Source: Cycas panzhihuaensis (lineage: Eukaryota > Plantae > Cycadophyta). From it: a stretch of 64,000 bases of DNA. The first letter of the stretch is position 1. Every line of letters starts with the position of its first letter. The translations under genes were made by a program, and so were the position numbers. The stretch lies in contig CM041465.1 in assembly GCA_023213395.1 (NCBI GenBank), positions 185,759,741 through 185,823,740 on the forward strand, in the 5' to 3' direction. This document shows, one piece after another, positions 1,883 through 61,195 of this stretch. A model generated the notes under the pieces. It saw nothing but the letters and a program-made list of their open reading frames with translations, made no database searches and was not told the origin of the DNA.

Positions 1883-1887
1883 TAACA

Positions 1888-4822: not shown

Positions 4823-6945
4823 ATGGAGCACCTTATGCCCAAGGCTATCTTCAATGGTAATAATTTTAATGAGTGGAAGGCCAATATGGAGCTTATTCTG
4901 ATGGTGAATCAAATCTGGAGTATCACTAAGGCTAAAGTAGATGTGATTCTACTAGACGATAAAGAGTGTGTTCATCTCAAAGAGAAGAAATTTATGGTTG
5001 TGGGGCTATTAAAACTATCATTGGCACTAGACCAGAGAACTTTAATTTACAATCTAGATGAACTAAATGAAATATGGACAAAACTATGTGATTCGTTTGA
5101 GAAGAAGAAGATGAATAGATATCTTACTCTAATGTTGGAGTTACTCAATTCATGTGTGGAAGATTGGAACAACATCAGCTCCTACCTAAATAAGATTACA
5201 GATTTGAAGAATAAGCTAGAAGAACTAAAGTAGAATTTGATCGATGATACGTTATTATTTGTAATAATCATGTCAAAGCTACCAGCTACATTCACCATTT
5301 TTAAGACTATTTATGGTAGAAATGAGGTAATGGAGGCAAAAACTTTTGATAGGCTTAAAAACCTAATTCTAGCAAAAGATGCCAAGCTTAAATATCATGG
5401 TATACTTGGAGGTTTAGAATCAAGTCAGACCCTAGCCATGAACACTTAGAGGAAGGAGGCCGCTAAGGAGGAGGAGAAGATCACATAGAGGTCAAGAGAG
5501 AATTCACAAGACAAGAAGAACTTTAATGGAAAATATAATTACTACAAGAAAGATGGTGATTGAAAAAAAGAACCATTAGTTCAAAAGATGTGACAAGTGC
5601 AAAGTATGCCTGGATGATAAAGGAAAGAGCATTGCTGCTCATTGTGTCAGAGCATAGACCTTATTAGTCGAGTTAGATTAGAGAGATTATTGGGTACTTG
5701 GCTTTAGAGTGTAGAAGTATATCTCCTACTAGAAGTATAACTCTGATACAGTGAATGAAAATCAGAGTGGTATTAAAATTATCCTTAGAGATGCTTGTGT
5801 TTTGCCGATGTAAGGTATCAATGGAGTATTCATTACAAGAGGCATGTTTACCAGGCTATACTATGTACCCAAGATATAGTTGAACCTTCATTTAGCTGAG
5901 GATATTTATAAACAAGGCATGAAGGTGGAGCTTTACAATGATAAATGGCTAATTAAAAATCTAAAGCAAAACTTTGCTATCACTACTATTGGAAAAGTTA
6001 GGGACAACCTCTAGGTATTTGAGAAATTTAAATCTCAGAAGAAGTCTTATGCCTTTGTTACCAACGTTGATGACATGAGTAAACTTTGGTATAATCGCCT
6101 AGGATACCTTAATTATAAAAGCATTACACTATTGAAGAGGTTAAAGATGGTGGATGGATTACCATCGATTTTTTGCTTAGATGGTATTTGTAAAGGGTGT
6201 ATGCATGGCAAGCATCATTGCTACTCTTTTGCTCGAGAGAATGCCTGGAGAGCCAAGGAGAAGTTGAAGCTTGTATATTCAGATATAATGGTTCCTCTCC
6301 TAAACCCTTCTATATTAGTAGCTCGTTATACCCTTGTGTTTGTAGATGGTTATACCAGGAAGGCCTAGGTTTACTTTCTCAAAAATAAGTCAGATGTATT
6401 TAATTGCTTCAGTGACTGGAAAGCGATGGTAGAAAATGAAAGTGACAAAAAGATTAAGTTGTTAAGAAGTGTAATGGCAAGGAATACAACAACCACATGT
6501 TTAATCAATTTTGTTGTAATCATGGTATAAAGTAGGAATTTACAGTCCTGTATACCGCATAATAGAATGGATTTGCTAAACGAAAGAACCGTACTATGAT
6601 AGAGATGACGAGGTTTATGGTGTATGCTAAAAACCTGCCGTTGATGTTTTGGATAGAGGCTGTAGCGACTGCTATTTATATTTTGAACTAGGTACCCACT
6701 CAATTAGTTCGTAGCATGATCCTTGAAGAGAAATAGATCAGTAAAAAACATGTCATTAGACATTTGAGAACCTTTGGATGTATTAAATACACCCATATCC
6801 CAGAGGATACTCATAAGAAGTTAGATCATAAGAGTCTAAAGTGCATATTCATGGGCTATTACAATGAGAATAAAGCCTACAAACTATGGGATCCATAGGG
6901 GAAGAAGATTGTGGTTAGTTGGGATGTAAATTTTAATGAGTCATG
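4823..6945 (+). pseudogene. Degenerate copia gag-protease-integrase
   Basis: ORFs 4784-5233, 5237-5449 and 6075-6368 carry gag (UBN2-like) and integrase motifs; many stops. Confidence 0.88.
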
Positions 6946-7191
6946 AGTAAAATTTATATCTTTTCTATTTGAGTCTTATTATAACAGAGTCCAACTACCT
7001 TACACTGGGATAGAGTGGCATTGAAAGAATACAGTCATCATTCTAATTGCACTCCCCTTCCCCACTCTTAATTTAATTCTTTTTTTCAAAAACAAAAAGG
7101 AAGGAAACAAAAGAAAAAAAAAGAAACAAAAAAGAGAGAAAATAGAAATGTTTCTTTAGGCATATTACTTGTTCTCTTTTTCTTTTTTATG

Positions 7192-7239
<48 letters not shown>

Positions 7240-9034
7240 TCACTTAATAAAAAGGAATCTCTCCTCTTTTTTTCTTTCTTATATACGTGCATCGTATTAG
7301 AACCTTCCAAAATAGTCTTTACATAATTTCTTTTTTTTTTTTGAAAGCTTGAGCAAATGAAGGGATTGCATAGTTGTGAGTCCTTGAACCTATGGGGCAA
7401 TATTGTATTTATAGATAGGATAGCTATTTGTATCCATTCAATAGAAAAGGCATATAGATGTATGCGGGTGTGTGTTTTCTTTTATAGCATACCGTACGCC
7501 CCCACTATTGAAAATTTAAACCATTTACATGCACACATAAACACTTGTGTTGCCCTAGTCTAGCCATTTTTACATTGTTTAAAAGCATAGTACATATCAC
7601 ACCCATATCCAAGAGGCATACAAGTGCCTTGAATAAGGCTTTGGCTCACTTTAACCCTACACACTTGCCATCCATGCCATAGGCTTATGTTTCTAAGTTT
7701 GTTACTTATATTCCACCCTTTCTCACACATATTTCACATGGTTTTTAAATGGGACTTGGCTCATGGTTTTAATAAAACCAATGGGATGTCCATAGTATTA
7801 TCCATGTATTAAATTAGGCCCACATTTGGGCACCATAAATATGTGACCAAATACAACCCTAAAAAATTTGTAACCTCAAAAATTAGTACCATAAAGTTTA
7901 GCACGGTATTGTGAAGAATTTTTGTAGTACCATGAAGTACTAGTAAACATTTACTTGCTAGGCAAAAGAAACCATTGAGTAATACAAGAGCTAAAAAAGA
8001 AAGTGGAACAATCCATAAAATGAGTATAATACAGAGAAATCTTAATAAAATAGGATAAAACACATGAAAACAAAGGCAACATAATAGAATAGGATGAAGA
8101 AGAACACAAGCAAAGTGGCAAAGAAGCAAACGAAGCCTTGTAGAGTTACTAAGTGACCTTTCTTAACCTAGTAAACTTGAAGGGATGGCGAAAATAGCCA
8201 TCGACTATGGTCAAAACCATCATCAACAAAAGGGATAATCAACTCATCTAGCAAATGAATAAGCAAACTCAAGCATACACTCACATACAACTGATCTAAG
8301 TTATATTAAGCTATGTTTAGTAAAGAGTGAGCATGTACCTTCACTAACCTATTGTCATTGTATCCACATCATTCTCAAATTGTAGGAAACAATTGGATGT
8401 TGTTTCTTATTTTTGTTCCATATTTTGATAGTGATGGAAATTTTAGTATGACATGATCTTTATCACTTTATATTATTCAAAGATCTTGTTTTATATTTTC
8501 AACATTTCAAATATTAACTTTTTGGTCTTTCAAATTATCACATCAGACTTTTAGTGGACATCTTCAACATTAATAGGATTTAATGCCTAAGGGTATTATG
8601 TTGATGCAAGAGCTTCTTTCTTTGGTTTATGTTAGGCTCCTAGGTGCTTACAAGAATTTTTTCCCCTTCAAAATATCATTATATAACTTTATAAAGTCCC
8701 CTTTATAAGGGTCATGCGTATCAATTAATAATTAGGGTTTATTAATATTTAATTAAAGGAGTTGATTTAAGAGATTCATTAGTTCATTTTTCAACAAATT
8801 TATTGAATCTTCCCTCTTATTCATTGTATAAATATATCATTCCATCAATAAAATGGATTGAACATTGGTCTTAGGAAATTTAGACTTAGGTTTTGAGATA
8901 ACCAATTCATATTGGTGTATAATTTCTCTAATTTGGCCCTTCTTTTATCTTCTTTTAGTCTTCCTTTATCCTCTTATCTATTTATAGGATTAAGATATCC
9001 TTTTGGAGGCATGTTTCTTAGATGTATATAATCA
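6946..9034. repeat. Unclassified repeat block X (probably non-coding fragments of other LTR elements)
   Basis: Colinear with 40614-42692; no recognisable protein motif. Confidence 0.7.
7195..7238. repeat. (TC)n(TA)n compound microsatellite
   Basis: Directly visible. Confidence 0.97.
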
Positions 9035-11320
9035 TTCTTTATAGAATGATTATATGAAGATAACCTTAAATGGAGTAGTTCTAGTTATGCCATTAAATTT
9101 CCTCACTCAATATAAGTTAATAAAATCAAATATTTTACTATGCTTTTCTTATAATAGCATTCTTCTTAACACCAATATTTTCTCAACACAACTTCCCATA
9201 GTCATCCAAATATACTTTAACTTCATGACCTATTTAATTGGGTAAAACTTTTTCCCAATAGGTTTGGCATTCAATGCCAATTTATTGTTCCACTAATAAG
9301 CTATCTCGAATTTTATTCTGTCAATAAAATCATTATGTATTAATTATTATTTAGGTATTCATACTCCTTTCATCAGTTCCATCTCATGAATAATCAATTT
9401 ATGCTTTATCAAGCAACTCATGTTGAGTTAGGTACCTTTTGTTTGAGTTCTTAGTAATTAAGGAGAGATTCGTGATAGTTAGCATTTAATTAAGTCTAAT
9501 GATCATATGTATTTGCTTTCAATCTAGCACTAGTTATTAACCCTTAAATGTGACATATTTGGTAAGAGTTATTTGATTTAATTGGGTGGTGTAAAACATT
9601 AGTTATTTGGATTGATGTTGCCCTATATTTATTTCCTCTTTTTTCTTTTTCTTTGCCATAGTCTAATAAATCCTTTGCCATGCCACTTAATAGCTGGTAT
9701 TTATAAACTAATTTCTAATGACATTTAAAGGTGTTATTTAATTCTTAATGCAATTGTTTATTCATCAACATATTAGTCTTGACACATCATAGGACTAATC
9801 TATCATGTTAATCATGTTTTCAAACCATTTTATTCATAATTTTATTCTTGAATTATGCCTCATTTGCGTTGATATAGTCACCTTATATAAGTTTATAAAC
9901 TTTGATCAATTAGAGTACTATAACAACAACTTTGAATTTAATTCTATTTGCCTAAAAAGTCACTTAGTTCTCTTTCTCGACACTCATGAAAATACAACAT
10001 AGCCTTTCAATGCTTAAATAAATAAATAAATACTAATTGCTCATTTAGATTTCTTAACACCTCCTCAAATAATGTGATATCATACCACAAAGGCATTATC
10101 TTTTAACACAGAATAACCCTTTTCTTAATAGCAATGTATTAACATCAAAACCTGATCTTTGGCACTATATGATTGCCCCTTTCTATCTCCAGGATGCCTA
10201 TGAAATGTAGACAACGGTTGCTTTGTATTAAGAATGTGCTTGTTTTTGAAATTATCGCAATCAACAAAGTTTTTCTTGGAAAAATTAATACATATTTTCC
10301 AAAACATATATATTTGATATATTGTTTGCTTAAAATAACTTTGATTCATATGTTTCTTTATTTTTTCATTGCTATATAAGTTTGGCAAATAGAGGCATCT
10401 TTCTTTTGGTAATTGAGTCACCCAGGCTTATATTTTCATAATCACATTTTAATAAAATAAATTTAAGTGTTTTAAAATATTTTTAAATTTATATAGGTAT
10501 GAAAATAAGTAAATTTTATTGTTGTGATTTAATTTCGATAGGTGGGTTTAAGTATAATGGTTAGTAAATATAGAGCTAAACATTAAAAAATAGAAAGCCA
10601 TGGGTTCAACTCTTATCAATTCACCTTTCACAAAGTACACATATAATCTAGGATAATTCATTCTCTTTAATACCATTTCATTATTCATTTTAATCTTTAT
10701 ATTATATACTTTAAACAATGGCATTTCACCAAATTACAAGTATAAACTACAATACTCTAATTGATTTAGAGACATCATCTAAACCATTGAACAACTACAT
10801 TTTTATACACTTAAGATCATATTTATCTAAAGGCAAAAGTAAACACTTTGGGATATTTTATAAGTCATCTCATAAGGTATAAAATAACAACTTTCAAACA
10901 ACCAAAACATATTCTTTTCTTAACTTGTCATTATAACAAAATATTGACAAAATTTCAATCAAGTTTTGATGGATTTTAAGTTCTTAAACACATGAATATA
11001 ATCACTTAAAAATGCATTTATTTCAAAGAGAAAATTAGTCATTCACATGTGTTGTTTGGCAAAAACTAACTAACCTCATTTTAAGACATAACACCCTACA
11101 TTTTAATCAACTACTAATAAACACTTAATAAACAAATGGATTAAAATCATATTTACTTGAAAGTTAAAAAGTGAACTTTGAAGGTATTTCATAATAATCA
11201 TTAAATTTTATATTATCGATTAGTTTTTTTTGGACTTATAAAATGCACATACATGTACCTCTAAAATTACATCTATTTCAAAGCATGAATTAATCATGTT
11301 CACGTGCTTTATGATTAGTG
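9035..11320. repeat. Core unit segment C, subtype C1
   Basis: Matches 42693-44970 closely and 19146-21900 more distantly (compare ORFs 9805, 43464 and 19922). Confidence 0.9.
10541..10625 (+). other. Degenerate tRNA-like (SINE-head-like) motif in the core unit; copies at 21119-21203 and 44196-44280
   Basis: GGTGGGT...ATTCACC can pair as an acceptor stem; A-box-like AGTATA(A/G)TGGTTAG; B-box-like GGGTTCAACTC. Confidence 0.45.
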
Positions 11321-11827
11321 TCATATCGACGATATTTTCTCAAAGTTATCAGATTGAGACAAAACTTGGTGGATAGATAGATTGAGAGATGCTCGTCACT
11401 TTTCTCTTCTGCATCAAAGACATTTTAAGATGTTTTAGGGGTTAAATCAACCAATAACTAGCCTGCATAGGATTGAAGGAGGAAACTTTGAAATCTTCTT
11501 AAATCAGTCCTAAGTCCAGGTAACTTTGGATCTAAAACCTTTGAATATTTATTATTAAGTGATTCAATCCATTTTTATTTGAATCCACTAAGTGTTTTGG
11601 CAATTATTTATAATGATGACTTAAAACCCTAATCGGTCATGTAACTATTCGAGGTTGATTTCTCCTATTTAGAAAACAATCTTGTAAAACTGACTTCAGA
11701 TCTAGGTAGATGGTGAAAAAATCTATCTTTTGAGGTATTGCTTGCCCTAATCCATACAATTACGGTTTTATACAAAAATCCATATAATTATATGGCCAGA
11801 CGAGTTAAACTTTCTCTCTCTTCATTA

Positions 11828-19145: not shown

Positions 19146-22785
<3,640 letters not shown>

Positions 22786-23170
22786 TGTTACATGCCATTG
22801 CGTCAAAATGTCTGTAGGTGATTTTGATAGGTTGCTAATAGGGTACCTGGAGATGTCTTGACCTCCAACACCCCCCCATGCATGTTGTGTGACCTCTATC
22901 CAGCTAGAGGGTATGCAATCAGCTGCCCAACCTGCCTTTTTTTTTTTGTGCTAAGGGGTACTCACTTGATCACCTAACCTATCTTATTTTGGTGGCAAGG
23001 GGTATGTACTTGGCTACCCAACCTGTGTTTATGACAATAGCAGGCACTGCGTCGGTAGTAGGAGTGGAACCCAAGCCTTAGCTTTGATACCACTTGTTAT
23101 ATGCTATTGCATCAAAATACAAATAGGTGATTCTGATAGGTCACTAACAGGGTGCACAGAGACATCTCAA
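22786..23170 (-). mobile_element. TRIM-like mini LTR element 1 (~85 bp LTRs, non-coding interior)
   Basis: Direct repeats 22786-22870 (TG...CA) and 23095-~23170; reverse PPT CCCCCCC at 22871-22877; reverse PBS GCTTTGATACCA at 23081-23092; three ~45 bp internal repeats. Confidence 0.85.
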
Positions 23171-23459
23171 AGCTGAATCTGAAGCTACTCTAGGAGACAA
23201 AAATGATCCACTTGGCATGGCAACCCTACACATCAAATTTTATTAAAATATGAGATAGTCAAAATTTTCATAAAATTTTAGGCCTTCAATGCTTTTGGGG
23301 TGGTTTTGGTAACCAAACAACTTCAAAAATTTATCTTTTTCACCTCTAAAATTGTACATGCATAAATAAAGTAGCAACATACAAAATAATATAATTTTAA
23401 ACTCTTTAATGCAAAAGAAAGTTCTCAAATAAGCTCTCAACCTCATATAAATTATGAGT

Positions 23460-24996: not shown

Positions 24997-25294
24997 TAAA
25001 AAGAGTGGATCTATTCTTCATCTCCATGCACTAAACACAAAGGCAAACATGAGAGCAAGAGAGATTTGAGAGAAAGAAAGTAGCTCTCACAAAATAGGGA
25101 GGTAAGAATGAATCTCCTCCATTGAGCTTTTACTTTTATATTGAGAGAGGGAGCATTAGAGGTAGGTGAAATGAAATTACACATAATGTACATGAAAGTG
25201 CATTTCACTTAAGTGATCTAATTTAAAGTTCACATAAGACCCTTTTTTGAAATAATCAACTAATGTAATGACCTTATGTCATTAACCCTTTACA
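24997..25294 (-). repeat. 3' LTR of H
   Basis: About 17 substitutions versus the 5' LTR by eye; PPT (CTCCCCCTT on +) at 25297-25305. Confidence 0.95.
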
Positions 25295-25724
25295 ATCTCC
25301 CCCTTAATGGTAGAAGGTCATTTCATCCTATTTTATTCTATCCTATGAGGTCTTCATTTGAGCCTCTTATAAAGCAAACTACTATGACACTTTTGTGGGA
25401 AACCCTCATGGGGAAGAAAACCTATAAATTTTCTAATCTACTAACCTGAATCAGGCAGCTCTTTAAATGTAGCCAGATAGCCAATCAATACAATGAATTT
25501 TGTAGTTAAAATCTACCGAGTCTCCATATATCATTTGGTCATCCCCCATTCCCTTTCAGGTTTTCACAGGTTTTGATTTTCCAAAATGATACAACCCTTA
25601 TCCTTTCACGCCCACATGGGGTTTTCACGAATGGGATAGAGCAGAGACTTACTCTTGTCCTTACCTTTACAAGGGTTTTCACTAATGAGACAGAGTATAA
25701 TGGTCCTATTGTAATCTCCTTCAA

Positions 25725-28700
25725 TCAGTCAAAGATAGAGGCCCTAAGGCTGAGTTACTTTTAGAACTATTCAAACTTCACCCTCTTTAGTAGTTTGGTG
25801 AAGATATCGACCACTTGATCTGCTATGGGGCAGTACTCCAGTTGAATTGTGCCATCATGAACTAGTTCTCTAATCTTGTGGACTTTTGTACTTATATGTT
25901 TGGTACGATCATGAAATATAGGATTTTTAGTCATCTGGATTATAGATTGATTATCTATATGTAAGCTAGTAGAACTTGTTTGAGTGGCATTTAATATATT
26001 CAACAATTTTCTAAGCCATATTACCTCCTTGCTTGTCTCAGAAGCAACAATGTACTCGACTTGATGGTTGAGTGCAGAACTATCTTTTGCTGTCTAGATC
26101 TCCATGATATTGGTGCTATTCCAAGAAATGTTATATACCCAGACGTAGATCTTCTTGTGTCTTTATCTCTGGCAAAGTCTGAGTTTGTGTATGTATAAAG
26201 TTTAAATTCTGCATTGGGTTCATACAACAGACCATATTTGCTAGTTGTCTTTAGGTACCTCAACACTCGTATTGCAGCTTGCCAATGATTCTACTTAGGA
26301 TTCGTCATGAATCTTATAAGAATGCTGATAGAGTGTGCAATATCTGGCCTTGTGTTAGTAGTATAGATGAGACTACCTACAAGTTGCATGTAGAGTGTTG
26401 CGTCTGCCTCCCTATTGTCACCATCAACTGAGAGTTTAATATTGGGCTCCATAGGTGTATCCACTGGTCGAGCACCTTCCAACTGAAACTTTGTCAGAAG
26501 ATCATTGATATATTTTTCTTAGGAGAGAAAGATTTTTCCATCCTTTTGAGTTACTTCAATTCCCAAGTAATATTTCATCAACTCGAGGTCAAACAATTCA
26601 AAAGTTTTAGTAAGGTCCTTCTTCAACTGGCTGATTACCTATTCACTATTCCCCATTATGAGCATGTCATCTACAAAGATTAAGAGGTAAGTGACTTTAT
26701 CATTTCGACACTTGATGAATGATGTTGCATCAATATCTTGATAGTCACAAACCTCATATCTAAGTTGCCTCATTCTTTCAGACAACTTGGTAAACCAAGC
26801 ACGAGGGGCTTGCTTTAGGCCGTACAAGGACTTTTTAAGCCTGCATACTTTATGGTCCTGACTGTTAATCTCGTATCCTTCTGGCTGAGCCATATAAATT
26901 TCTTCTTTAAGGTCCCCATTGAGAAATACGATTTTAACATTGAGTTGGTGGATTTTCCAACCCTGTTGAGAAGCCAAGACTATAAGAGTTCTGATTGTAG
27001 GCCACTTGGTTGTAGGAGCAAAGGTTTCAGTGTAGTTAATGCCTTCCCTTTACGTGAATTCTTTTGCTACCAACCTCACCTTGTATTTTTCTAGGGTGCC
27101 ATCTGATCTATACTTGTTTTTGAACACCCATTTATTTTGAACTACCTTTCTTCCAATTGGTAGATCAACAAGCTCCCATGTACCATTATTAATAAGAGAT
27201 TGATACTCTTCGTTCATGGCATTTCTCCAAGCTGCATGCTTAACAACTTCTTGGTACGTTAGGGGCTCTTCATTAAGAGCAAGATGCAATTTTGTTGGTT
27301 TAAGCTCACGGAAAGTGATTCATGCATCCTTGTTCTATAGGCACTTCTAGTACCAGTTTTGCCTACCTCATCCAATTGCATGTCCTTATGTAGCTAGTAG
27401 GCTTCACGAAAACCTCGAGTTGTGAATGAGGTTTTCATTTCCACAACCTCTTGATCTTCATTTTGATCCTAAAAAGGATCATGTGAAATATTTGGCACAG
27501 AGGAAGTTGATGATGCTGGAGAAGATGGGCCAGCCACAGATGTTGGAGAAGATGATCCTTCTGCTATGGCTTTGCCTTTATCAACTTGGATGTTCACAAA
27601 TGATAGTGTTGGATATGTACACATTGGCTTGGAGTCACAGCTTGTATCCTCCGAGGCTCTATTGTCAGATTCCAAGATTTTGAACAATTGTTCAGCATCT
27701 CCCCCCCTAAATTTTAGAATCTGGACATCAAATTCAATGGCATCATTAAATCAGTATGAAGGCATCTTAGAGTTAAGTCTAAGTAATTGATCTTTAGTCT
27801 TTGCAAAGATAGCATCTCTAGTGATGATGATTTTACACTGTCAAGGTATGAAAACCTTGTATCCCTTTTTGTCCATAGGGTATCAAATAAAGATGCCTTT
27901 GATGGCTCTATCTTGGAGCTTATTTCTACGTTCCTCTAGAATATGAGCATAACAAATAGAGCCAAAAATTCTAAAGTGAGAGATAGAGGGGGTTTGTTCA
28001 TACCACATTTTATGTGGAGAGGGGCTAAGTTTGGAGGGACTAATAGTGTTGATGTAATACACAACAGTCCAGATACCCTTAGTCCAAAGATAGATAGGGA
28101 CATTCTTATATACCAGCATAGCATAAGCCATATTCATGACGGTCCTATTCATGCACTCAGCAACTCTATTTTGCTAGGGTGTACCTGCAAAAGTGGTCTT
28201 ATGTTTGATTCCATGTTGATGTAGGTACGATTCAAACTCATTGGATGTGTACTCACCACCATTGTCAATCCTGAGTATTTTGATCTTGAATCTAAATTCA
28301 TTTTCCACGCAAGCCTTGAAAGCTTGAAACATAGAAAAAGCTTCATCTTTCTTTGTAAGAAAAGCAACCCATACTTTCTTGGTAAAATCATCAATGAAAG
28401 TAATATAGTACCACTTCTGTTTAAGAGAAGGGTTGGGCATATGACCGCATATATCTAAGTGTACAAGCTGCAAAGGTTGGCTAGATTTCCATTGACTATG
28501 AGGAAAGGGTTGTCTTTGAGATTTAGCAATAATACATGCTTCACATTTAAAGGGTTTAGAGGGGAACTTAGACAAACCAGGAAGAGTGTCTTGTAGTTAT
28601 CTTAAATGATCAATTTTGATATGGCCCATATGAGTATGCCATAGAGCTGCTTGGGACAACGTTTGAGGAGTCAGGGTTGTGGTAAAAGCAAATTCATCAT

Positions 28701-30282
28701 CAACATAGTTGGCTTCAGAGGATGGTGAGCCAATTAGGCAAAAATGTTTGCCATTAAGAATTCCAGTCATAACTATAACATTTGAAGGAGGGTGAATGAC
28801 ACTGAGAGTTTGATTGTTTGTAGTTACACTCAGATCAAATCCACGAGAGACAAGGGTGGATAAGGAGAGCAGATTCTACTTCAGAGTAGGAATATATAAA
28901 ACATCAACAAGTGTAAAATTTGGAAGGCCTGGGAGTTTCAAGCAAATAATTCCAAGTCCTTCGAATGGATGAGATGATTTGTCAGCCATGTATATAACAC
29001 CACGAACTTCAGAGTCAAAATCTTGAAAGAACTGGCGATGACAAGTCATGTGTTGTGTTGCTCTAATATCCATGATCCACGATGAAGTATTTGAGGTAGC
29101 GCTATTTGTAACTCCAAGTGGTGAAGGCAAAAGTGAATAAGCATAGCCACAATGAGCCTCAATATACTTAGTGGATCTATCAACAACATTTGATGAAGTG
29201 GTCCCAATTCTTTAAAGGTGTGCATGAGTAAATTATGTTCCACCAAAAGCATCTTCAAAAGAAGTATTATCAACATTATGTGCACCATGGCACTGTTGAT
29301 AACTTGGTAGTTTATTGGTGGCAGTTTTGCAATTTTTGGCATAATGTCCTTTTCTATTACACCTTTGGCACACGATTGTTTGATTTCTAGTCCAAGTATT
29401 GGGCTGGTTGGATTGTCTCTGATTACTGGATTTAGGTCCAGGTTGATTATTTTGGCCTTATCTTTGAGACTATTTTTGTTAGAATTGAGGAGCATATTGA
29501 CTAAGAGGACGTTGTCCTTATTGTCTACCTCTTCCTCTTCCACGGGAATTACCACCTCTACAAGAGTATTGACCTTGATTTTTGGTGTAACAAAGATCTT
29601 CTTCTACTTCAAAAGCAACATCAACTGGATCTGATGTAGTGGCAAAGTTAGTATCAAAGGTCTTATCAAATTCAATGAACTTATCAGCAAGATTCTCAAA
29701 GTTTAGGGTCTTCAAAGTGCCACTAGATTGAAGACTTCTTAATAGATTTTTATAATCTGGGATTTGGAGACATGATTAAATCAAGAAAGTCTATGTAATG
29801 CATTGAGTTTTAAAATCTTTATCAATGGCTTTCTTGATTGGATGAAGGAGATTGATTATCTCACTTGCATGTCCTTTCTGCATTTTCAATTTGTTCATCT
29901 TTAGCACTAAGTGAACAAATTCTAAGTCTCATTTAATGTTAAAGTCATTCTTAAGAACTTCAAGAACTTTCTATGCTATATCATGTACAACTTCATTAAT
30001 GAGATTATGTAGGGAATAATCAGTGACAAGTAGTATCCCTGCACGGATTTTATCATCATCAAGTTCCCATTGGCATTTAGCTGTAGCTTCAGTGGGAGCA
30101 GTTGGAGAACCTCCTACTAAAGCAGTTGTGGTAGTTGTAGCTGCAATAGGTGATATAGGTTATAAGTGATCTCTCCATAGACCTTCATACTTTACGACAT
30201 TTCTGACACTAGTGAACCACATATCCTAATTTTCTTTCCCTTTTAGAATGCAGTTCACATTTTGCTTGAACTGTGAAGACAT
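25725..30282 (-). pseudogene. Degenerate copia gag-pol of H
   Basis: ATG at 30282; ORFs 29518, 28876, 28174, 27883, 27050, 26639, 26291, 26021 and 25767 with WIMD, FIDDFTKK, DNGGEY, FVDD, RSTSGY and DQVVDIFTK motifs. Confidence 0.93.
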
Positions 30283-30450
30283 GGTGTCTTTTTAGAAGGG
30301 AAGAAATGAACAAGGGACTATAAAAGTGATGGCAATAAATGACTGATCACTATTTACAAATGGGAAATGTAATGAAGTAGTGTAGCAGAAGGAAGAAGAA
30401 GTGAGAATGGATACTTAAAGATGAAGGGAGTAACTTAGAGAAAAGTCACC

Positions 30451-30574
30451 AACACTTGTGACAAATATTAACTTGACATAGCAGGAATATGAGAAGCACT
30501 ATGATAAAAATTGGCCATTAACACTTGTGGCAAATATTAACCTGATGTAGTAGGAATATGAGAAGCACTATGAT
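30451..30574. repeat. Two-copy direct repeat (~68 bp period) in the 5' UTR of H
   Basis: AACACTTGTG(A/G)CAAATATTAAC...AGGAATATGAGAAGCACTATGAT occurs twice. Confidence 0.85.
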
Positions 30575-31440
30575 TGTGATTACACTATGGATCACTTTTT
30601 ACAAATAAGTAAGTGATCAATATACAAGATTGTAGACCAATGTAGAAGCTGACATCATTAGGTTTACATAACTTGAAATTTAAATGTAAGATGTGTAATC
30701 AACCCAATAACCTCTAACTTGTGTCCAACATGTAGTTGAGGTTGTTGAAGGGATGCCTAAGCTTCTAGTAGAATTAAGTTGGCCTTTACCCGCGATAGCT
30801 ACAATTGTACTTGGTGATGAAATCTAAGTCACAACGGAGCCCAGGTACTCCCAATCCTCACCCAGTTCCCCAATGAGTAGATATATACCTCCTCTAAAGA
30901 GTGGTATGTGCATATCCATAGCTATGACAAATATTGGATTGGGTATATTTTAATCTTGTAGTAAAGTTTCAGTTTTTCTAGTTGGTTATCAAGATGATCC
31001 CTGATTGAGGCATGATGGTATGGCTAACCAAACCTCACCAATATTCTAGTTTAGTCCAGTCCCAACTGAAACTGACACCTCCTTTATGGTATAACATGCT
31101 ACCAACCAAGGTATCTCAACCTTGGAGAGTGTGTGAACAGGTATAAAATTGCAAAAAATAGCCTACGTGATGCGTTCCTTTTAGGAAGAGTGAAAAAATT
31201 ATCTAATTGCATCAAACGTATATTTAACTGAAAATAGAATGCTTGCTTGAATTGTCTTTAGAGTGCTTGCTTTGAGTGAGTTTAGAGTGATGAAATACAA
31301 TGCTAATAAGTGAGTGAGGACACCAGATATTGCTCTAATCCAGGTGTTTTTTCTCACTTTTACAATGGGCTTTCAAGCCTTATAAAAAGAAGGAAGAATT
31401 TTACTTCACCTTTTTTTTTTTTGTTAATACAAAAAAAGTA

Positions 31441-31780
31441 GTCTTCACTAAATCAATAATAACTTTCTCCCACGATGTCAAAATGGAGTGCTATTTTTTG
31501 TTCTGTAAACTAGACTTAGAGCTTCATCTTTAGGAAGTGGAATCAGGTCCAAATGAGTTCTGCAAAGTTTTTGAAAACCCCACAAAGTTAGAAAATTATA
31601 TTTTTTTAAAATTCTTACTAAAAATAACTGTTGTTCACTAAAAAAGTAATAACTTCCTCATACGACATCCAAATTAGATGTTAGTTTTTGTCTTGGAAAG
31701 TAGACTCAGAGCCTCATCTTTGAAAATTAGAGTCACTTCAATTGGAGCTCTGTAGAAGATTTTGCAGACCTGTGAGGTTT
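31441..31780. repeat. Diverged two-copy repeat (~190 bp period) in the 5' UTR of H
   Basis: TTCACTAAA..TAATAACTT..TAGACT(T/C)AGAGC(T/C)TCATCTTT occurs twice. Confidence 0.7.
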
Positions 31781-32284
31781 AGTAATCAAATTATATTTTT
31801 GCAGAAATTTCAGCTTGCTAATATCTCATTAACACATGATACCATATGAAATTTCCATCAGTTTTTGATCACTAGGATCTGAATATGGGCAACGTGAGAG
31901 CATATAATTATATATATTTTAAATGGCTCAAAATTCTTTAAAAAAATTAGGTAAAACCTCTCCTTACAATCATTCTTCTAAATGCTAGAAACATTTTAGC
32001 AGCATTTCCCCTTGTTAAATGGACCAAAAAGAGAAAAGAAAAAGAAGAATGGGATAACATGAATGGCTAGCAAAGGATTGGAATCCTTGGGCCTTACAAC
32101 TCCTTGTATTATGCTTACAAACCTGCAAAAGATAAAGGAAAAGCAAACAATACAAAATATGCTATCATAATAACTTGAAAATATTTATAAATTCACTTTC
32201 ACAATCTCCTTCACCATATGGATTGTGGGGAGAAGGAAGTGATGGCTCCATTGTAAGTGTAAGTAAGGAATATGAAGGAAGCAA

Positions 32285-32296
32285 GCTCTGATACCA
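32285..32296 (-). promoter_or_regulatory. PBS (tRNA-iMet) of H
   Basis: GCTCTGATACCA on + equals TGGTATCAGAGC. Confidence 0.96.
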
Positions 32297-32298
32297 TA

Positions 32299-32596
32299 TG
32301 AAAAGAGTGGATCTATCCTTCATCTCCATGCACTAAACACAAAGGCAAACATGGGAGCAAGAGAGACTTGAGAGAAAGAAAGTAACTCTCACAAAATGGG
32401 GAGGTAAGAATGAATCTCTTCTATTGAGTTTTTACTTTTATATTGAGAGAGGGAGCATTAGAGTTAAGTGAAATAAAATTACACATAATGTACATGAAAG
32501 TGCATTTCACTTAAGTGATCTAATTTAAAGTTCACTTAAGACCCTTTTTCGAAATAATCAACTAATGTAATGACTTTATGTCATTAAACCTTTTCA
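32299..32596 (-). repeat. 5' LTR of H
   Basis: TGAAAAG...CTTTTCA termini; matches 24997-25294. Confidence 0.96.
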
Positions 32597-35571
32597 CTTC
32601 TCTTAATGAAAAGTGGATTGGATAGGCCCCCACTGCCTACCACTTCAAAATATTTGACTCAACATGTTATGCCCATATACTGGATAGAGATAGAAATAAA
32701 CTTTAGTCTACAGCACTTAAAAGCATCTTTATTAGATACCCTATGGATAAGAAAAGGTTCAAGGTTTTTATACCTTCACAACGGAAGGTTATCATCACTA
32801 GAGATGTGGTCTTTACTGAAACAAAAGATCAATTATTATAATTAGGCTACAAAACAGCAAATCGCCATTATTATAATACTACTCAACATGATGTACATAT
32901 TCCAAAATTTGGGAGGGGGAGGAGACGCTCAAGAGTTACTTAAACTATTGGAATCTAACAATAGAGCCATGGAGGATAGTAGCTGTGACTTTCAACCAAT
33001 GAGTACACATCATACACCACCATTTGATAAAAACATAGTTGACAAAGGCAAAGCAGTGGTAGATGGACCACGTTCCCCAAATACGTCAACATCCTCCTCA
33101 ACAAATATGTAAAATGATCCTTTTCAAGATCTAAATGAAGAAAATGCAGTTGGAGAAATGAAGATCTCATTTCCAACTCGAGGTTCTCATGAAGCCCGCT
33201 AACTAAATATGTATATATGACTTGATGAGGTGGGAAAAATTGGTACTCGAAATGCCTATAGAGCCAAGATACAAAAATCACTTTTCATTGAGTTAAAACT
33301 AACAAAATTGCATCTTCCTCTCAATGAAGATCCCCTCTCATACCAAGAAGTTATAAAACACATAGCTTAGAGGAATGTCATAAATAAAGAGTATCAATCT
33401 CTTATAAAAAATAGTACATGGGAGCTCATCAACCTACCACTTAAAAGAAAGATAGTTTAAAACAAATGGATGTACAAAAATAAATACAGATTTGATGGTA
33501 CTCTTAAAAAATACAAGGTGGGGTTGGTAGTAAAGGGATTCACACAAAGGCTAAAGTCTTTGTACCTACAACCAAGTGGCCTATAATTAGAACTCTTATG
33601 GCCTTGGAAGCTTAATAGGGTTGGAAGATTCACTAGCTCAATGTAAAAATTGCATTTCTCAATGGTGATCTTGAAGAAGAAATCTACATGGCTCAGGTTG
33701 AAGGATTTGAGATTACTAGTCTAGAGCATAAGGTGTGTAGGCTCAAAAGGTCCTTATATAGCCTTAAATAAGCCCCTCGTTCTTAGTTCACTAAGTTGTT
33801 AGAAAGAATAAGGTAACTTAGATATGAGGTTTGTGATTACCTGGATATTGATGTAATATTGTTCATCAAAAGCTAAAAGGATAAAGTCACTTATCTCTTG
33901 ATCTTTGTGGATGATATGCTTATAACAGAGAATAGTGAACATGTAATTAGCCAACTAAAGAAGGGCTTAGCTAAAACATTCGAACTGTCTAACCTTATGT
34001 TGATGAAATACTACTTGGGAATTGAAGTCACTCAGAAAGATAGTAAAATCTTTCTTTCTCAAGAAAAGTACATCAACAATCTTCTAACAAAGTTTCGGTT
34101 GGAAGATACTTGAACTATAGCCACTCTAATAGAACCTAATGTCAAACTAGCAACTAATGGTGATGATCGAGAGGTAGACATAATACTTCATATGGAAATT
34201 ATAGGTATTCTCATTTATACTACTAATATAAGACATGATATTACACACTCTATCGATATTCTTGCTCGTTATATGATAAATCCTAAACAAAATCACTTGT
34301 AGGTAGTAGTGCGAGTGTTGAGGTACCTTAGGACAACTAGTAAATATGGTTTATTAAATGAACTCAATTCAAAGTTTAAACTATATACATACATAGACTT
34401 AGATTTTATCGAAGATAAAGACATAGGGAGATCCACATTTAGGTATATAATATTTTTTAGAATAGTATCAATATCATAGAGATCTAGACGGTAGAAGACA
34501 ATTATTGATTCAACTGTCAAAACTAAATATATTACTACTTCTAAGACTAGTAAGGAGGTGATATGGCTTAGGAAATTATTAGAAACATTAAATATTGCCC
34601 AAACAAGTCCTACTAGACTTCATGTAGATAATCAATCAGTAATCCATATGGCCAAAAATCTTGTATTTCATGATCATACCAAACACATAAGTACAAAAGT
34701 CCATATGACTTGAGAGCTAGTTTATAATAGCACAATCCACTTGGAGTACTATCCCATAGCAGATCAAGTGGCTGATATCTTCACTAAACCACTATAAAAG
34801 GTGAAGTTTGAATAGTTCCATAGGCAGCTTAGTCTTCGAGCCTCTATCTCCAATTGATTAGAGGAGATGACAACAAGATCTTCATACTCTATTCCATTCA
34901 TGAAAATCCCTTGTAAACATAAAGAAATAAGAGTAGGCCACTATTTTATCCTATTTATGAAAATCCCTTAAGGGTTGTACTAGTCTTAGAAAATTAGAAC
35001 CTATAGAAATCTAAAAATCCATGGGGGATGACCAAATAATATATGGAGACTCAGTAGATCAAGCTGCACATTTAAGCTACTTGGCTATCAAGATACATCA
35101 AGAAACACCTAGGCTAATTTAATTTAAGAGGCTATAGAACTTAGAAAGTTCATGGGTTTTCATTTCCCATGAGTATTTTCCCATAAAAGTGTCAATATAA
35201 TAATGATACTCAAATAAAGACCTTATAGAATAGATTTTATCATAATGACCTTTTACCATTAAGGAGGGGATTGATAGATATTATGCATCAAGGTCATTAG
35301 ATTAATTATTTGAAGGTGACTTTAGGTTAGTTAAGTCACATAGTTAAATGTAATTTCATTTATATTTAAGTGCAATTTTGGGATCATGTCATTAGGCAGC
35401 AAACTCCTTTGGAAACCCTAATGCACATCCTCTGTAAGGCTGAATGTGAAAGGAAGAGTAATAATTCTCATCTCTTATTTTTGTTCTCAATCTTGTTCTC
35501 TTCATTTTGCTCTTATTATGTGCCATTGATTTAGTGTAGTGAAGTATGATAATTAGATCCTTCGCATAATA
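32597..35571 (+). mobile_element. Copia family I copy 2, 3' part (INT C-half, RT, RH, PPT 35261-35270, 3' LTR 35272-35571)
   Basis: Integrase resumes after the TSD; FVDD in ORF 33898; DQVADIFTKPL at ~34762; colinear with 1-1882. Confidence 0.93.
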
Positions 35572-35576
35572 TAACA

Positions 35577-36680
35577 AACTAGGGTTAGTTCCTTAGTAGG
35601 GGTATAATCATGTAGATGTGTTTTACCTAGTACAACCTATCTATAAAAAGTTATACTTCTAAGTGATTCTAGTAGATGTAAGGGTACGGAAGAGTAAATG
35701 AGTTGACTTTATGCTCATTCTTTAGGAATGTATTATGAAGCTATGGCTAGTTGAGTGGCCTTCTCTAGAGAGACCATAAGGCGCTTTATTTTTTCACTGC
35801 CTATACTATTCAGGATTGTTAAATACTATCTCATGGTTTATCTTGGGATTTATTACTAAGGTTGGAGATGGTGATTCTAACAGGGTTAAGGTTGTATTAC
35901 TAGGGAAGACCACCTAATAATCTTGAATCAGAGGAGTGGATAGGTAGCTTTAATGACTTCAATTTGGCCTTTTCTGCCTTACTATATAAAATAATATCAA
36001 TATGATAGCCTAGTACTAGTACTTTCTTTATAGTGAGTTGAGCTCCCATTTATTAAGTTAATTTTCTTTTTATTTCTCATTCATCTATTTAGCCATCAAG
36101 TTCTTTAAACTCCTACATTAATCATTATATATTTTGATTAGGTGAAACACATTTTATTATCAATCATTTAGTCGCTTTCTTAATTAATCCTTTTTCAAAT
36201 TCATAAAATATAGACTCAAATGTAGTCTTAACTCACACTAGGCATATAGTTTATTTTAGATGGAAACTATGAGTATTACATTTCCACATTAAAACCATTT
36301 AAGGAGCCTTTGGAATAGACCCCTTAATTCAAAAGGAGGTTGGCCTGTGTTCTTTTCCTATTTTTATGATAAACTTATTCCAATAAAATTTTAAAACACT
36401 AATATATGGCACTAGGTTAGGAAACACTCTATAAGTGATTTCAAGTGGCAGTATTGTAGAAAATTTCATTACTTAATGTATGTCATACCTATAAACATAA
36501 AATGTATACTTTTACTTCAAATTTGTATAGGAATTAATAGGATTATCTACAAATGATTTTTTCTATAGTTGATGATAAAAAAATTTATACAAAATCATTT
36601 GCAAAATGTGTTGTGTAAAATAATTCATGGTGTTTTATATATTTATAACTTCACATTGTTTTATATAAAGCTTTATATAA
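35577..36680. repeat. Core unit segment A, subtype A1
   Basis: Colinear with 1888-2991. Confidence 0.92.
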
Positions 36681-39600
36681 TGTGAATGTGGTAGTTGTTT
36701 ATTAAGCTATAGATTAATATTAATGTGGTTTAACTAAGGGTCACAACCCTAATTGGGTGACACCTCTTGGAAGAGTATAATAGCCTTGAGCCCTTGTGTA
36801 TTCTATGTATCAAAATTATTGTGCAATAATAAATGTGATCTAAAAGGACCTTTTGTGGTGGGGTTTTTCCTAAAGGGTTTTACCACATAAATCCTATGTA
36901 CTATGCATCTATATTCTGTGTATATTTTTATTTTCTTACTATGTATAGTTAAAGATTCTACAAATGGGAACATACCTGTATGATTTCATGTTCCTGAACA
37001 TGGTATTAGAGCTATAGGATCCTATATAACTGAAGCCTGGCATTGAGTTGAGTCGTGAGATCACTAGTTTCTAGGTGAAACTGTAAAACCTAAGACTTGT
37101 CTTAAGGGTCCATCATCTGTAGCAACGTGCAAAAGTAGGCACAATAGATCAATAGTAGTTGAAATAGTTAAAATCACTATTCAACAGAGCATAAGGGCCT
37201 ATTAAAGTCAATAATCAAGCATAAAGACCACAATTATGGTGTGAGTTGGCTCATTGGGGGCCATTAGAAGTGGGTTGATGATCTATAAGGTTGATTCAAG
37301 CTAGCAGAGCATGTACTGGTAGTGATTTGATGACTATGAGGACAACCATCTATATATATATATATATATATAAGTGAGTTATTTACTCATCTAAAACATT
37401 ATAAAATTAAAAAAGAAGTAAGTTTTTTTCAGTATGACTTACATCTAGTCTATATAAGGGAGGGATTGGAGCTTATTTAGAATGTTTTCAATCCTCTATA
37501 CTAAGATTAGATTGAGAATATAGTAGTGCATAGTATTAACTACTAAAATTTTGAGTCTTAATATCCTTATATGAGAGAAAGGCCCCCTTATTTTAGTCGT
37601 ATGCATAAACATAGCCCGAATTTGCATGTTAAGAGGTGTTTGGGCAAGTTCTAGTGTTTGTTGGGCATGTTTAGGAGGTGGCTAGGCCTTGTACACACTG
37701 TTTACTAGCCATATTAAAGCTGTTTATACCCATAGCCTTCTTTATTGGTAACTTGAAGGACATAATCTATGTATGTAGTTTAAAAACTATTATCCACATG
37801 ACTGGGCTCTTGTATGAAGTGGATGGTCTTAGATTTATCCATATACCAAATGTATAATAAGTGTAGGTTTGTGGTTTAGAGTGTTGGTCTGTTCATAGCA
37901 CGTAGGCAAAAATTGAATTGCGACAACCGCGTCTCTTAGAATCAGGTAGTATGACTTATTGTATCATGTTTTTGATGATATTTTACTAAGTTAAGACCTT
38001 AATAATATTAGTAAGATGATATAATGAAAAAATAAAGCATGTGGGTTATATGATATGGTGCAGTTGTTCATATAAAGTTGTAATTGTTGAAATATATCCT
38101 TTAGTATATTCTCTTTATAATTGAACATTATAAAAGGCCCATAGACCATTGAAAAATCATATTATTTTATAATGTATTATATTTCAGGACTCCTTGAGCC
38201 ATTTTGAGTGTGGATTGAGGAGATTTATTTTTGTTGTTACTTGGAGATCGTGTAATTCTGCTGTATGGAGTTGTCCCCATTCTTGGAGCACCTTTTTTAA
38301 GTGACTAAAGGATCATTTTTTATACTTTTGAGTTCATTTATAGGCATTTTGAAGCCATTTATGAGGGAAGAATAATCAATGACTCATTTAACCTATGTAT
38401 AGTTGCTGTTTGGTGCCCTCCAGAGTGTACCCTTGAGCTAGAGGAGGACATAGGGGTGTATTTTTTATCCAAAAGACAATAATTTTGGTGTTATTTGACA
38501 CATATTGAGATATGTTTCAATAGATGGAGTGCCTTATATCTAAAGTTATCTTTAATGGTAACAATTTTAATGAGTGGAAGGCTAATATGGAGCTTATTCT
38601 GATGGTGAATTAACTCTAGAGTATCACTGAGGCTAAAGTGGATGTGATTCCACTAGACCATAAAGAGCATGTTCATCTCGAAGAGAAGAAATTTATGGCA
38701 CTAGGCTAGGGAGCTTTAATTCACAATCTAGATGAACTAGACAAAATATGGATAAAACTGTATGATTTATTTGAGAAGAAGAAGAGAAATAGACGTTTTA
38801 CTCTAATGTTGGAGTTACTCAATTCATGTGTGGAAGATCAGAATAACATCAACTCCTACCTAAATAAGATTATGTATTTAAAGAATAATCTAGAAAAACT
38901 AAAGTAGAATTCGATCGATGATACGTTATTATTCACAATAATCATGTCAAAGCTACCAACTGCATTTGCTAATTTTAAGAACATTTATGGTACAGTGATG
39001 GAGGCAGAAACTTTTGATGGGTTTAAAAACCTAATTCTAGCAGAAGATTCTAAGCTTAAATATCATGGTATGCTTGGAGGTTCAGAATCAAGTCAGGCCC
39101 TAGCCATGAAGACTCAGAGGAAGGAGGCCGCTAAGGAAGAGAAGATCACATAGAGGTTAGGAGAAAATTCACAAGATAAGAAGAAGTTCAATGGAAAATA
39201 CAATTACTACAAGAAGGATGGTCACTAGAAAAAAGAACTATTGGTTTAAAAGATGTTATAAGCATAAATTATGCTAGGATGATAAAGGAAAGAATATTGC
39301 TACTCATTACGTCAGACCACAGACTTTATCAGTCGAGTGAGATCAGAGAGATTATTGGGTACTTGACTCTAGAGTATATAAGCATATCTCCTACTAAAAG
39401 TACAACTTTGATATAATGAATAAAAATCAGAGCAGTGCTGAAATTATCCTTGGAGATGCTTATGTTTTTCTAATGTAAGGTATTAGAAGAGTATCCATTA
39501 TAGGAGGTAAGTTTACCAGGCTATACTATGTACCCAAGATGCAGTTGAACCTTCTTTTAGCCTAAAAAATTTGTAAACAAGGCATGAAGGTAGAGATTTA

Positions 39601-60543: not shown

Positions 60544-60882
60544 ATCTTCCACCCACATTTTCCCTAAATGTATCCTCTCTATTATTAACAGCCATTCCTT
60601 CCCTTCCATATATATCTCTATTCTACATTCCATCCTCACTTTGAGTAACTTCACTCTCTTCTTTTTCCTTCATGACTTTTATTACTACTATACCTAAACT
60701 ACAATGACATATAATTTTCCATAAATATAAAAGATAAATAAACCTAAGAGTGTCTAAGATCAAATTGAATTATTCTTTCTTATTCAAAATTTAAATTATT
60801 TTTCTTACCAATTTCTTTCGTGGCATTACAAACCCTTGCAAGGTTTGAATTCCTTACATTAGCTTTAAATGGTTAAATATGT

Positions 60883-61195
60883 TGTTATACACTTGGGTAG
60901 TCTTCACTAATACCTCGAGGTTTTAGTGCAACAGTTTGTTACAAGTGGTATCAGAGCCAAGACCTAAGTTCAAATCCTATAAGGGGCATGCCATATACAA
61001 GGGTGGAAGGGTGACATGCCAAATGTCATTGATGTATAAAATGTCATCATAGTCAGGGCCTATAGGACACATGAATGCTAGTGAAAGTGGGACTAGGTAG
61101 GACTAGCCCATTTGACCTGGGAGGAGGTAATGGTCTACTTGGTGGAGGGCCCTCTTCACTAAAACCTCAAGGTTTTGGTATAATGGTTTGTTAAA
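60883..61195 (+). mobile_element. TRIM-like mini LTR element 2 (~310 bp)
   Basis: 43 bp direct repeat 60901-60943 / 61153-61195; PBS TGGTATCAGAGCC 60946-60958; PPT GGGAGGAGG 61119-61127 then TG at 61131; left boundary uncertain. Confidence 0.78.

What the first reader, a model, noticed from the sequence alone, without database searches (positions are those of the whole stretch)
22786..23170. TRIM 1 builds a tRNA-type Pol III promoter across its 5' LTR-PBS junction
Seen, element sense (minus strand): TTT-TGATGCAATAG (TGACGCAATGG in the other LTR), 9 nt to the LTR end CA, then AG, the PBS TGGTATCAAAGC, 10 nt, and GTTCCACTCC in a TGGG-7nt-CCTA T-arm-like stem. Established: tRNA-type promoters have A-box TRGYNNARYGG and B-box GTTCRANNC about 45 nt apart; here the offset is 44. 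Cassandra TRIMs use a 5S-derived Pol III promoter lying wholly inside the LTR. Inference: this TRIM may use a split tRNA-type promoter that is complete only at the 5' LTR, with the PBS sitting where an anticodon arm would be. I do not know a description of this, but I cannot search. Alternative: the B-box-like motif is extra pairing to the tRNA-iMet T-arm, whose complement reads GGTTTCGATCC.
Basis: partly seen in the sequence, partly recalled or inferred. Interest (0 to 1): 0.8.

Follow-up and report, generated by a model that had tools for sequence, protein, structure and literature searches.

The report
Split tRNA-type promoter in plant mini-retrotransposons
A decayed 385-base gene-less retrotransposon, a second one in the same window and four families found elsewhere (among them the grass SMART elements) carry tRNA-gene promoter motifs split between the end repeat and the interior, which likely lets RNA polymerase III copy the element from its left end only, though no transcript has been tested.

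Summary
Observation confirmed. TRIM 1 (minus strand, 22786-23167) has TTTT + A-box-like 11-mer at both LTR ends, a Met PBS, and a B-box-like 10-mer 44 nt after the A box. Alone this is weak: 39 such pairs occur in the window, each box has a non-canonical base, and the copy is decayed. But a second TRIM in the window (about 60880-61195) has the same layout with better boxes. A metagenome scan selected only on PBS + B box gave 119 loci, mostly TRIMs in six clusters. Four of the six also carry TTTT + A box at the LTR end (shuffle rate at most 0.031). The largest cluster is the grass SMART family, whose describers found no terminator. Best reading (0.7): a type-2 Pol III promoter complete only at the 5' LTR, with TTTT ending the RNA in the 3' LTR and a very short R region, as in Cassandra. 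Against: no RNA data, internal T runs in some families, one cluster without TTTT or A box. Ten literature searches found only Helenus, Ajax and Cassandra, with promoters wholly inside the LTR. This scan noted the same split layout earlier in two yeast TRIMs.

The parts
23095..23167 (-). TRIM 1 5' LTR remnant (about 12 nt lost at its outer end)
   Evidence: 75% identical to the 3' LTR
23114..23117 (-). T4 run in the 5' LTR; would have to be passed early in transcription (inferred)
23104..23114 (-). A-box-like 11-mer in the 5' LTR (2 mismatches to TRGYNNARYGG)
   Evidence: relatives mostly restore the first G of the closing GG (23105: 47-72% of depth in 4 runs)
23081..23092 (-). Primer-binding site for initiator Met tRNA, 2 nt after the LTR end
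   Evidence: the same 12-mer is named as the PBS in Kalendar 2020
23061..23070 (-). B-box-like 10-mer, 10 nt after the PBS, 44 nt after the A-box start (1 mismatch: C where a purine is expected)
22871..23094 (-). Non-coding interior without a sense T4; holds two imperfect 31-nt repeats (23000-23030, 22909-22939)
   Evidence: no ORF of 90 aa or more
22871..22877 (-). Polypurine tract (G7)
22786..22870 (-). TRIM 1 3' LTR, 85 nt, TG...CA
22805..22808 (-). T4 run in the 3' LTR; predicted Pol III terminator and end of R
   Evidence: first sense T4 after the PBS; function inferred
22795..22805 (-). A-box-like 11-mer of the 3' LTR (1 mismatch), with no B box behind it
23170..23209 (.). Piece of an unrelated, very high-copy repeat that abuts the truncated 5' LTR
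   Evidence: summed contig depth 11,000-28,000 against at most about 370 on the TRIM; loose ends on both sides
60880..60943 (+). TRIM 2 5' LTR (start approximate) with T4 60921-60924 and A-box-like 60924-60934 (1 mismatch)
60946..60957 (+). TRIM 2 PBS (exact 12-mer)
60968..60977 (+). TRIM 2 B box (0 mismatches to GTTCRANNC), offset 44 from the A box
61127..61195 (+). TRIM 2 3' LTR (start approximate) with T4 61173-61176 and a consensus A box 61176-61186 (0 mismatches)
   Evidence: 83% identical to the 5' LTR over 41 nt; boxes

Best explanation
This is a decayed copy of a multi-copy, non-coding miniature LTR retrotransposon (TRIM) from an old lineage that likely makes its RNA with RNA polymerase III, using a tRNA-type promoter split between the end of the LTR (A box) and the interior just past the primer-binding site (B box). 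Shown: the motifs, their order and spacing, and their recurrence across TRIM families whose other sequence has diverged. Inferred: TFIIIC binds A and B only at the 5' end, since the 3' LTR and solo LTRs lack the B box. Transcription would start about 8-17 nt before the A box (near 23122-23131), pass the first T4, and stop at the same T4 in the 3' LTR (22808-22805). That gives an RNA of about 320 nt with an R region of only about 10-20 nt and a U5 of about 20 nt. A copia-type helper using initiator Met tRNA would then reverse-transcribe and integrate it. This particular copy is probably dead.
For: (1) TRIM 2 in the same window has T4 + A box, PBS and B box at identical offsets with 0-1 mismatches; 0 of 4 other PBS sites in the window have either feature. 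Spacer lengths are peaked and family-specific: 12 (77), 11 (20), 7 (8), 10 (7), other (7). (3) The LTR was not part of the pattern, yet T4 directly followed by an A box with at most 2 mismatches is at 119 of 135 LTR ends in cluster F0, 7 of 12 in F1, 8 of 11 in F2 and 3 of 3 in F6, against 0.013-0.031 in dinucleotide shuffles. (4) The A-to-B offset is 44-45 in TRIM 1, TRIM 2, F2 and F6 although the PBS slides by 3 nt between the boxes (22+10, 23+10 and 25+7). (5) F0, F1 and F2 have a TATA-like word 36-42 nt before the A box, at the upstream edge of the AT-rich zone of plant tRNA genes (PMC13437025, passages). (6) F0 is SMART: three small-RNA tags of Gao 2012 Table 4 match 43, 16 and 6 F0 loci and no other cluster; that paper found no polyadenylation or termination signal. 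(7) In 214 contigs from 4 runs laid on the junction, no indel reaches 12%. (8) Precedent: Cassandra starts and stops inside its LTRs with an 18-nt repeat (Kojima 2024).
Against: No transcript, Pol III occupancy or mutant data exist here. In TRIM 1 each box has a non-canonical base, and relatives probably share them: no alternative letter at 23112 or 23066 is among the 40 best-supported of 168 differences, and two of three runs list no change that would give G at 23066. The last G of the A box has decayed to A in 26-44% of depth, as PBS bases also have, so conservation within this family is not shown. TRIM 1 has no TATA-like word. Cluster F4 (3 loci) has a B box but no T4 or A box in its LTR, and F3 has T4 but only a 3-4-mismatch A box. 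Sense T4-T6 runs lie inside the would-be RNA in 6 of 6 F3, 1 of 5 F2 and 8 of 39 distinct full-length F0 elements. The lack of internal T4 in TRIM 1 and 2 is not significant against composition-matched shuffles (25% and 8% of shuffles have one). How Pol III would pass the first T4 is unexplained. Clusters are partly homologous (F0-F2, TRIM 2-F6), so they are not independent origins, and LTR ends of one element are not independent counts. The scan required a B box, so it cannot tell how many Met-PBS TRIMs lack one. A TATA-like word fits Pol II as well.
Confidence: 0.7

Rival explanations
1. The B-box-like word is an RNA element for extended pairing with the T arm of the initiator tRNA primer (as Ty1 uses extra boxes beside its PBS), and the element is a Pol II TRIM; the LTR motifs serve integration or packaging.
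For: Extended primer contacts outside the PBS are documented for Ty1 (PMC3592414, passages). The word always lies 7-12 nt from the PBS. The helper candidate FRetro64 shares the SMART interior at 96% with unrelated LTRs (Gao 2012). F4 has the word without LTR motifs.
Against: By tRNA numbering (recalled), a continuous extension would start about 2 nt after the 12-nt PBS, not 7-12. The rival does not predict T4 + A box at the LTR end or a fixed A-to-B distance. Foreign LTRs joined to a TRIM interior exactly at the PBS occur in about 10 loci, so a shared interior in FRetro64 can be a recombination product.
Confidence: 0.12
2. The boxes are a relic of a tRNA or SINE in the ancestor; they are inherited with the LTR-PBS junction but no longer drive replication, and the RNA comes from Pol II (own TATA, or read-through from host genes).
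For: TATA-like words in F0-F2; Gao 2012 proposes TATA-driven or host-gene transcription for SMART. Internal T runs in F3 and in part of F0 would cut a Pol III RNA. Non-canonical boxes in the TRIM 1 family. Clusters share ancestry.
Against: The informative A-box columns, the T4 and the spacing persist across families whose U3 and interiors show little or no similarity. In 49 distinct SMART junctions the four T's are invariant (these rows were anchored on the T4, so this says little by itself).
Confidence: 0.14
3. For TRIM 1 the match is chance: T-rich LTR ends and a loose consensus give an A/B pair by accident.
For: 39 pairs of equal or better score in the window; no tRNA match or fold.
Against: Same motifs at the same offsets from the PBS in TRIM 2, F2 and F6; absent at 4 other PBS sites.
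Confidence: 0.04

Closest known systems
Helenus (TRIMp3), Kojima 2024, PMC10886601 (read: parts 1-4 of 6 of the text, figure legends, two supplement passages)
   Same: TRIM with tRNA-type A and B boxes, PBS and PPT; Pol III use inferred from motifs only; copia helper likely for fungal members.
   Different: Helenus carries the whole tRNA-like unit inside each LTR; in the only plant member (Helenus-1_SMo) both boxes and a downstream T run are in the 120-nt LTR. Here the B box is outside the LTR, the T4 precedes the A box, and no tRNA is recognised by ARAGORN or Rfam.
Cassandra TRIMs (Kalendar 2008 not held; seen through Kojima 2024, Kalendar 2020 PMC7215508, Maiwald 2024 PMC10853983 and PMC12486564, passages)
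   Same: Plant TRIM, Met PBS, Pol III promoter and terminator in the LTR, very short R (18 nt).
   Different: Type-1 (5S) promoter, wholly inside both LTRs; experimentally supported. Here a type-2 promoter, complete at one end only, and untested.
SMART / FRetro129 of grasses, Gao 2012, PMC3281118 (read: sections 11 and 15, passages of others, one supplement table)
   Same: About 280-290 bp, 82-85-nt LTRs, Met PBS. Cluster F0 matches its published small-RNA tags and has the same T4 + A box / PBS / B box order.
   Different: TRIM 1 is not a SMART: separate cluster, A-to-B offset 44 against 55-57, and no similarity in U3 or interior at this sensitivity. The paper has 0 occurrences of 'polymerase' or 'tRNA'; its Figure S4 on LTR signals could not be seen.
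tRNA-derived SINEs
   Same: Internal A and B boxes at tRNA-like spacing; non-coding; depend on a helper.
   Different: SINEs have no LTRs, PBS or PPT and use target-primed reverse transcription by LINE proteins (Kojima 2024).

Membership tests
TRIM | Two LTRs, total length under 1 kb, no coding capacity | tested here: met
   LTRs 75% identical, 382-385 bp, no ORF
TRIM | PBS after the 5' LTR and PPT before the 3' LTR | tested here: met
TRIM | Target-site duplication and intact TG...CA ends | tested here: not met
   For this copy: 5' LTR truncated, no TSD. TSDs were found in 27 of 56 F0, 2 of 3 F1, 2 of 5 F2 and 6 of 6 F3 elements. Read as damage to an old copy.
TRIM | Dispersed multi-copy family | tested here: met
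   78, 67, 32 and 37 diverged contigs laid on the LTR-PBS junction in 4 runs of 2 species labels; a third label
Helenus | tRNA-derived sequence with both boxes inside the LTR | tested here: not met
   B box lies 24 nt outside the LTR; compared with Helenus-1_SMo
Helenus | Detectable similarity to tRNA or SINE2 sequences | tested here: not met
   ARAGORN 0 genes; no Rfam tRNA match at E up to 10 for TRIM 1, TRIM 2 or 14 loci.
Cassandra | 5S rRNA-derived domain with boxes A, IE and C in the LTR | tested here: not met
   No Rfam 5S match; LTR only 85 nt
SMART | Sequence homology to FRetro129-type LTR and interior | tested here: not met
   TRIM 1 clusters apart from F0, holds none of three SMART tags, and shows no U3 or interior similarity
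TRIMp3 (TRIMs with a Pol III promoter) | Conserved Pol III promoter boxes at usable spacing | tested here: inconclusive
   Met across families; within the TRIM 1 family each box likely keeps one non-canonical base and the core positions could not be read fully
TRIMp3 (TRIMs with a Pol III promoter) | Transcription by RNA polymerase III | not testable with these tools
   Needs end-mapped RNA, ChIP or in vitro transcription

The most novel reading that the evidence does not exclude
[quoted passage not shown] The terminator sits directly before the A box, so R shrinks to 10-20 nt. Solo LTRs and 3' LTRs are promoter-dead, and template switching at the PBS can make or break the promoter. This would explain how LTRs of 50-85 nt suffice, and would make Pol III TRIMs a common class rather than a Cassandra oddity; yeast TRIMs noted earlier in this scan would be a convergent or very old case.
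Probability: 0.55. Interest if true: 0.82.

Novelty: new variant of a known kind. Interest (0 to 1): 0.7.

Why it matters
LTR elements normally hold the whole promoter in the LTR, so both LTRs and every solo LTR are potential promoters. A promoter split across the LTR-PBS junction solves the polarity problem in another way and allows the smallest known LTRs. Gao 2012 left open how SMART elements are transcribed and terminated; the model answers this with sharp predictions (start 8-17 nt before the A box, 5' triphosphate, end at the LTR T4, dependence on the B box) that can be tested in rice, maize or sorghum with existing data types. It also gives a simple motif (T4 + A box, PBS, B box) for finding and classifying TRIMs that share no other similarity.

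Tried and rejected
No whole genome is held for this window, so no genome-wide census was possible. The run search listed no RNA holder; this says nothing about expression. The RAD-seq run X18 laid 0 reads. The second read-laying listed differences only for 23071-23105, apparently leaving out 30 nt at each end of the stretch (my inference), so the B-box core and most of the A box were not read, 128 of 168 differences were not shown. Two scans of viral contigs were of no use: (50 loci) was not analysed further, and (49 loci) gave mostly copies of a few phage sequences; 0 of 47 printed sites had T4 + A box, but they are not LTR elements and so are a poor control. tRNA cloverleaf or Rfam match: none. 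T4 depletion in the interior: 9-14% of window stretches of that length lack T4, but against composition-matched shuffles the effect is small (F0 9 of 56 observed against 0.31 expected), so I give it little weight. Per-column variability in 49 SMART junctions did not single out the A box (0.071) from the rest of U5 (0.067). Of 119 scan loci, 16 lacked flank for the LTR test and 29 of 103 had no LTR pair; clusters F5 and F7-F10 (7 loci) have no LTR pair and no LTR motifs and were not counted as TRIM clusters. Kalendar 2008 is not held. The supplement of Gao 2016 (PMC4717578) holds no TRIM sequences as text, so its families could not be screened. The 12-nt A-box variant used and the tRNA numbering are recalled, not taken from a call.

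Full report
Setting. The window is 26-39% GC for most of its length and full of broken copia-type retrotransposons (Pfam RVT_2, rve, gag). With Met-type PBS sites this points to a large plant genome (inferred). No whole genome is held.

The element. On the minus strand, TRIM 1 has a 3' LTR of 85 nt (22870-22786, TG...CA), a G7 polypurine tract, a 224-nt non-coding interior, a PBS at 23092-23081 and a 5' LTR that matches the 3' LTR at 75% from 23167 to 23095. The outer 12 nt or so of the 5' LTR are gone; a piece of a very high-copy repeat lies at 23170-23209, and no target-site duplication remains. It is an old, damaged copy. It belongs to a dispersed family: 78, 67, 32 and 37 diverged contigs lie on the LTR-PBS junction in four runs, and a run under a third species label also holds copies.

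The observation. Alone they prove little: 2 and 1 mismatches, and 39 pairs of such quality in the window.

An internal replicate. A search for PBS sites showed a second TRIM at about 60880-61195 on the plus strand. It has T4 + A box (1 mismatch in the 5' LTR, 0 in the 3' LTR), 9 nt, the LTR end, AG, the PBS, 10 nt and a B box with 0 mismatches: the same offsets as TRIM 1. No similarity to TRIM 1 was detected in U3 or in the interior. The other 4 PBS sites in the window have neither T4 + A box nor a B box.

A test on outside DNA. Of 103 loci with enough flank, 74 have an LTR pair, nearly all 180-500 bp in total. They fall into six TRIM clusters: F0 85 loci, F1 9, F2 7, F3 6, F4 3, F6 2; seven further loci have no LTR pair. 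T4 directly followed by an A box with at most 2 mismatches lies at 119 of 135 LTR ends in F0, 7 of 12 in F1, 8 of 11 in F2 and 3 of 3 in F6. Shuffles (100 for each of up to 40 ends per cluster) give 0.013-0.031. F3 has T4 at 12 of 12 ends but only a 3-4-mismatch A box, and F4 has neither. If clusters were independent, 4 of 6 would have P about 1e-5. They are partly homologous (F0-F2, TRIM 2-F6), so the better reading is long conservation of these motifs while the rest diverged. The A-to-B offset is 44-45 in TRIM 1, TRIM 2, F2 and F6 although the PBS moves 3 nt between the boxes; it is 54-57 in F0 and F1, and 41-42 in F3. F0, F1 and F2 have a TATA-like word 36-42 nt before the A box; TRIM 1 has none. 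Only 22-32% of angiosperm tRNA genes have a TATA box, and their terminators start at 4 T (PMC11700998, passages); upstream signals are weaker outside angiosperms (PMC13437025, passages).

F0 is SMART. Three small-RNA tags printed in Gao 2012 match 43, 16 and 6 F0 loci and no other cluster. That paper notes a TATA word, finds no polyadenylation or termination signal, calls the mode of transcription unclear, and never mentions polymerase or tRNA. Hosts of the other clusters are not given by the calls.

Mechanism. Shown: the motifs, order, spacing and recurrence. Inferred: TFIIIC binds the A box in U5 and the B box past the PBS, a pair that exists only at the 5' end. Pol III would start about 8-17 nt before the A box (functional CAA starts lie 1-10 nt before the mature tRNA end; the 7 nt from there to the A box are recalled), pass the first T4, and stop at the T4 of the 3' LTR. 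R would be 10-20 nt, like the 18-nt repeat of Cassandra (Kojima 2024). A copia helper that primes on initiator Met tRNA would do the rest; about 10 loci with a foreign LTR joined to a TRIM interior exactly at the PBS suggest shared particles and template switching (inferred). I put this at 0.7 for the lineage; this copy is probably inactive.

What speaks against it. There are no RNA data. The TRIM 1 family probably keeps a non-canonical base in each box (partial listing). Its G and C bases decay by transitions in the A box and the PBS alike, so within-family conservation is not shown; only the spacing is (no indel at 12% or more in 214 contigs). Sense T runs interrupt the would-be RNA in 6 of 6 F3, 1 of 5 F2 and 8 of 39 distinct F0 elements. 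The absence of internal T4 in TRIM 1 and 2 is not significant against matched shuffles. Passing the first T4 needs an explanation. The scan cannot say how many TRIMs lack the B box.

Rivals. Extended pairing with the primer's T arm has a precedent in Ty1 (PMC3592414, passages). An inherited tRNA or SINE relic on a Pol II element remains open (0.14). Chance is unlikely (0.04). No tRNA fold or Rfam match was found, which fits DNA-level boxes better than a tRNA-like RNA.

Known systems. Kojima 2024 groups Cassandra, Helenus and Ajax as TRIMp3, all with the small-RNA-derived promoter inside the LTR; the plant Helenus has both boxes in its LTR. Subscription journals and Repbase notes were not searchable. 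This scan's notes hold two unchecked yeast cases of the same layout, and none by sequence or in this genome.

Verdict. A real feature and a new variant of a known kind (Pol III TRIMs). It works like Cassandra or Helenus but is a member of neither. Interest 0.7, mostly because the layout extends to SMART and makes an open question directly testable.

Noticed in passing
window 60880-61195 (+): Second TRIM with the same split layout and better boxes than TRIM 1; old copy, outer LTR ends unclear, no TSD found.
   Followed up: yes
L106/L142, L114, L061, L087, L157 (SMART); L058 (F2); L107, L119/L133, L082 (F1): Foreign LTR-like ends joined exactly at the PBS to a TRIM interior, often followed by the TRIM's own 3' LTR. 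Looks like template switching at the PBS between helper and TRIM; could name the helpers and explain why FRetro64 shares the SMART interior.
   Followed up: partly
L082, second LTR element downstream of the match (near position 1317 of the oriented locus): Another TRIM-like element whose LTR has T4 + an A-box-like word and a B-box-like 9-mer inside the LTR, with no B box after its PBS: possibly a Helenus-type layout in a plant TRIM.
   Followed up: no
L097, about 115-300: Tandem units of LTR end + PBS (T4, A box, PBS) without a B box, before one complete junction.
   Followed up: no
L055, L059, L063, L065, L073, L125 (cluster F3): Young TRIMs (LTRs 97-100% identical, TSDs in 6 of 6) with a T4-T5 run about 20-25 nt after the B box, where a tRNA gene has its terminator; they might make a short RNA or read through.
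   Followed up: no
L053, L141, L161 (cluster F4): 500-bp TRIMs with 180-nt LTRs, a B box after the PBS, but no T4 anywhere in the element and no clear A box.
   Followed up: no
window 23170-23209: 40-nt piece of a very high-copy repeat (summed contig depth up to 28,000) abutting the truncated 5' LTR.
   Followed up: no
window 10550-10612, 21128-21190, 44205-44267 (+): Three copies of a larger repeat each hold an A-box-like and a perfect B-box word at offset 54; not tied to a PBS.
   Followed up: no
window 887-11336 and 34598-44987; 24999-32596: A 10-kb duplication at 86% identity and a nested copia element with 94.6% identical LTRs (24999-25294, 32301-32596).
   Followed up: no
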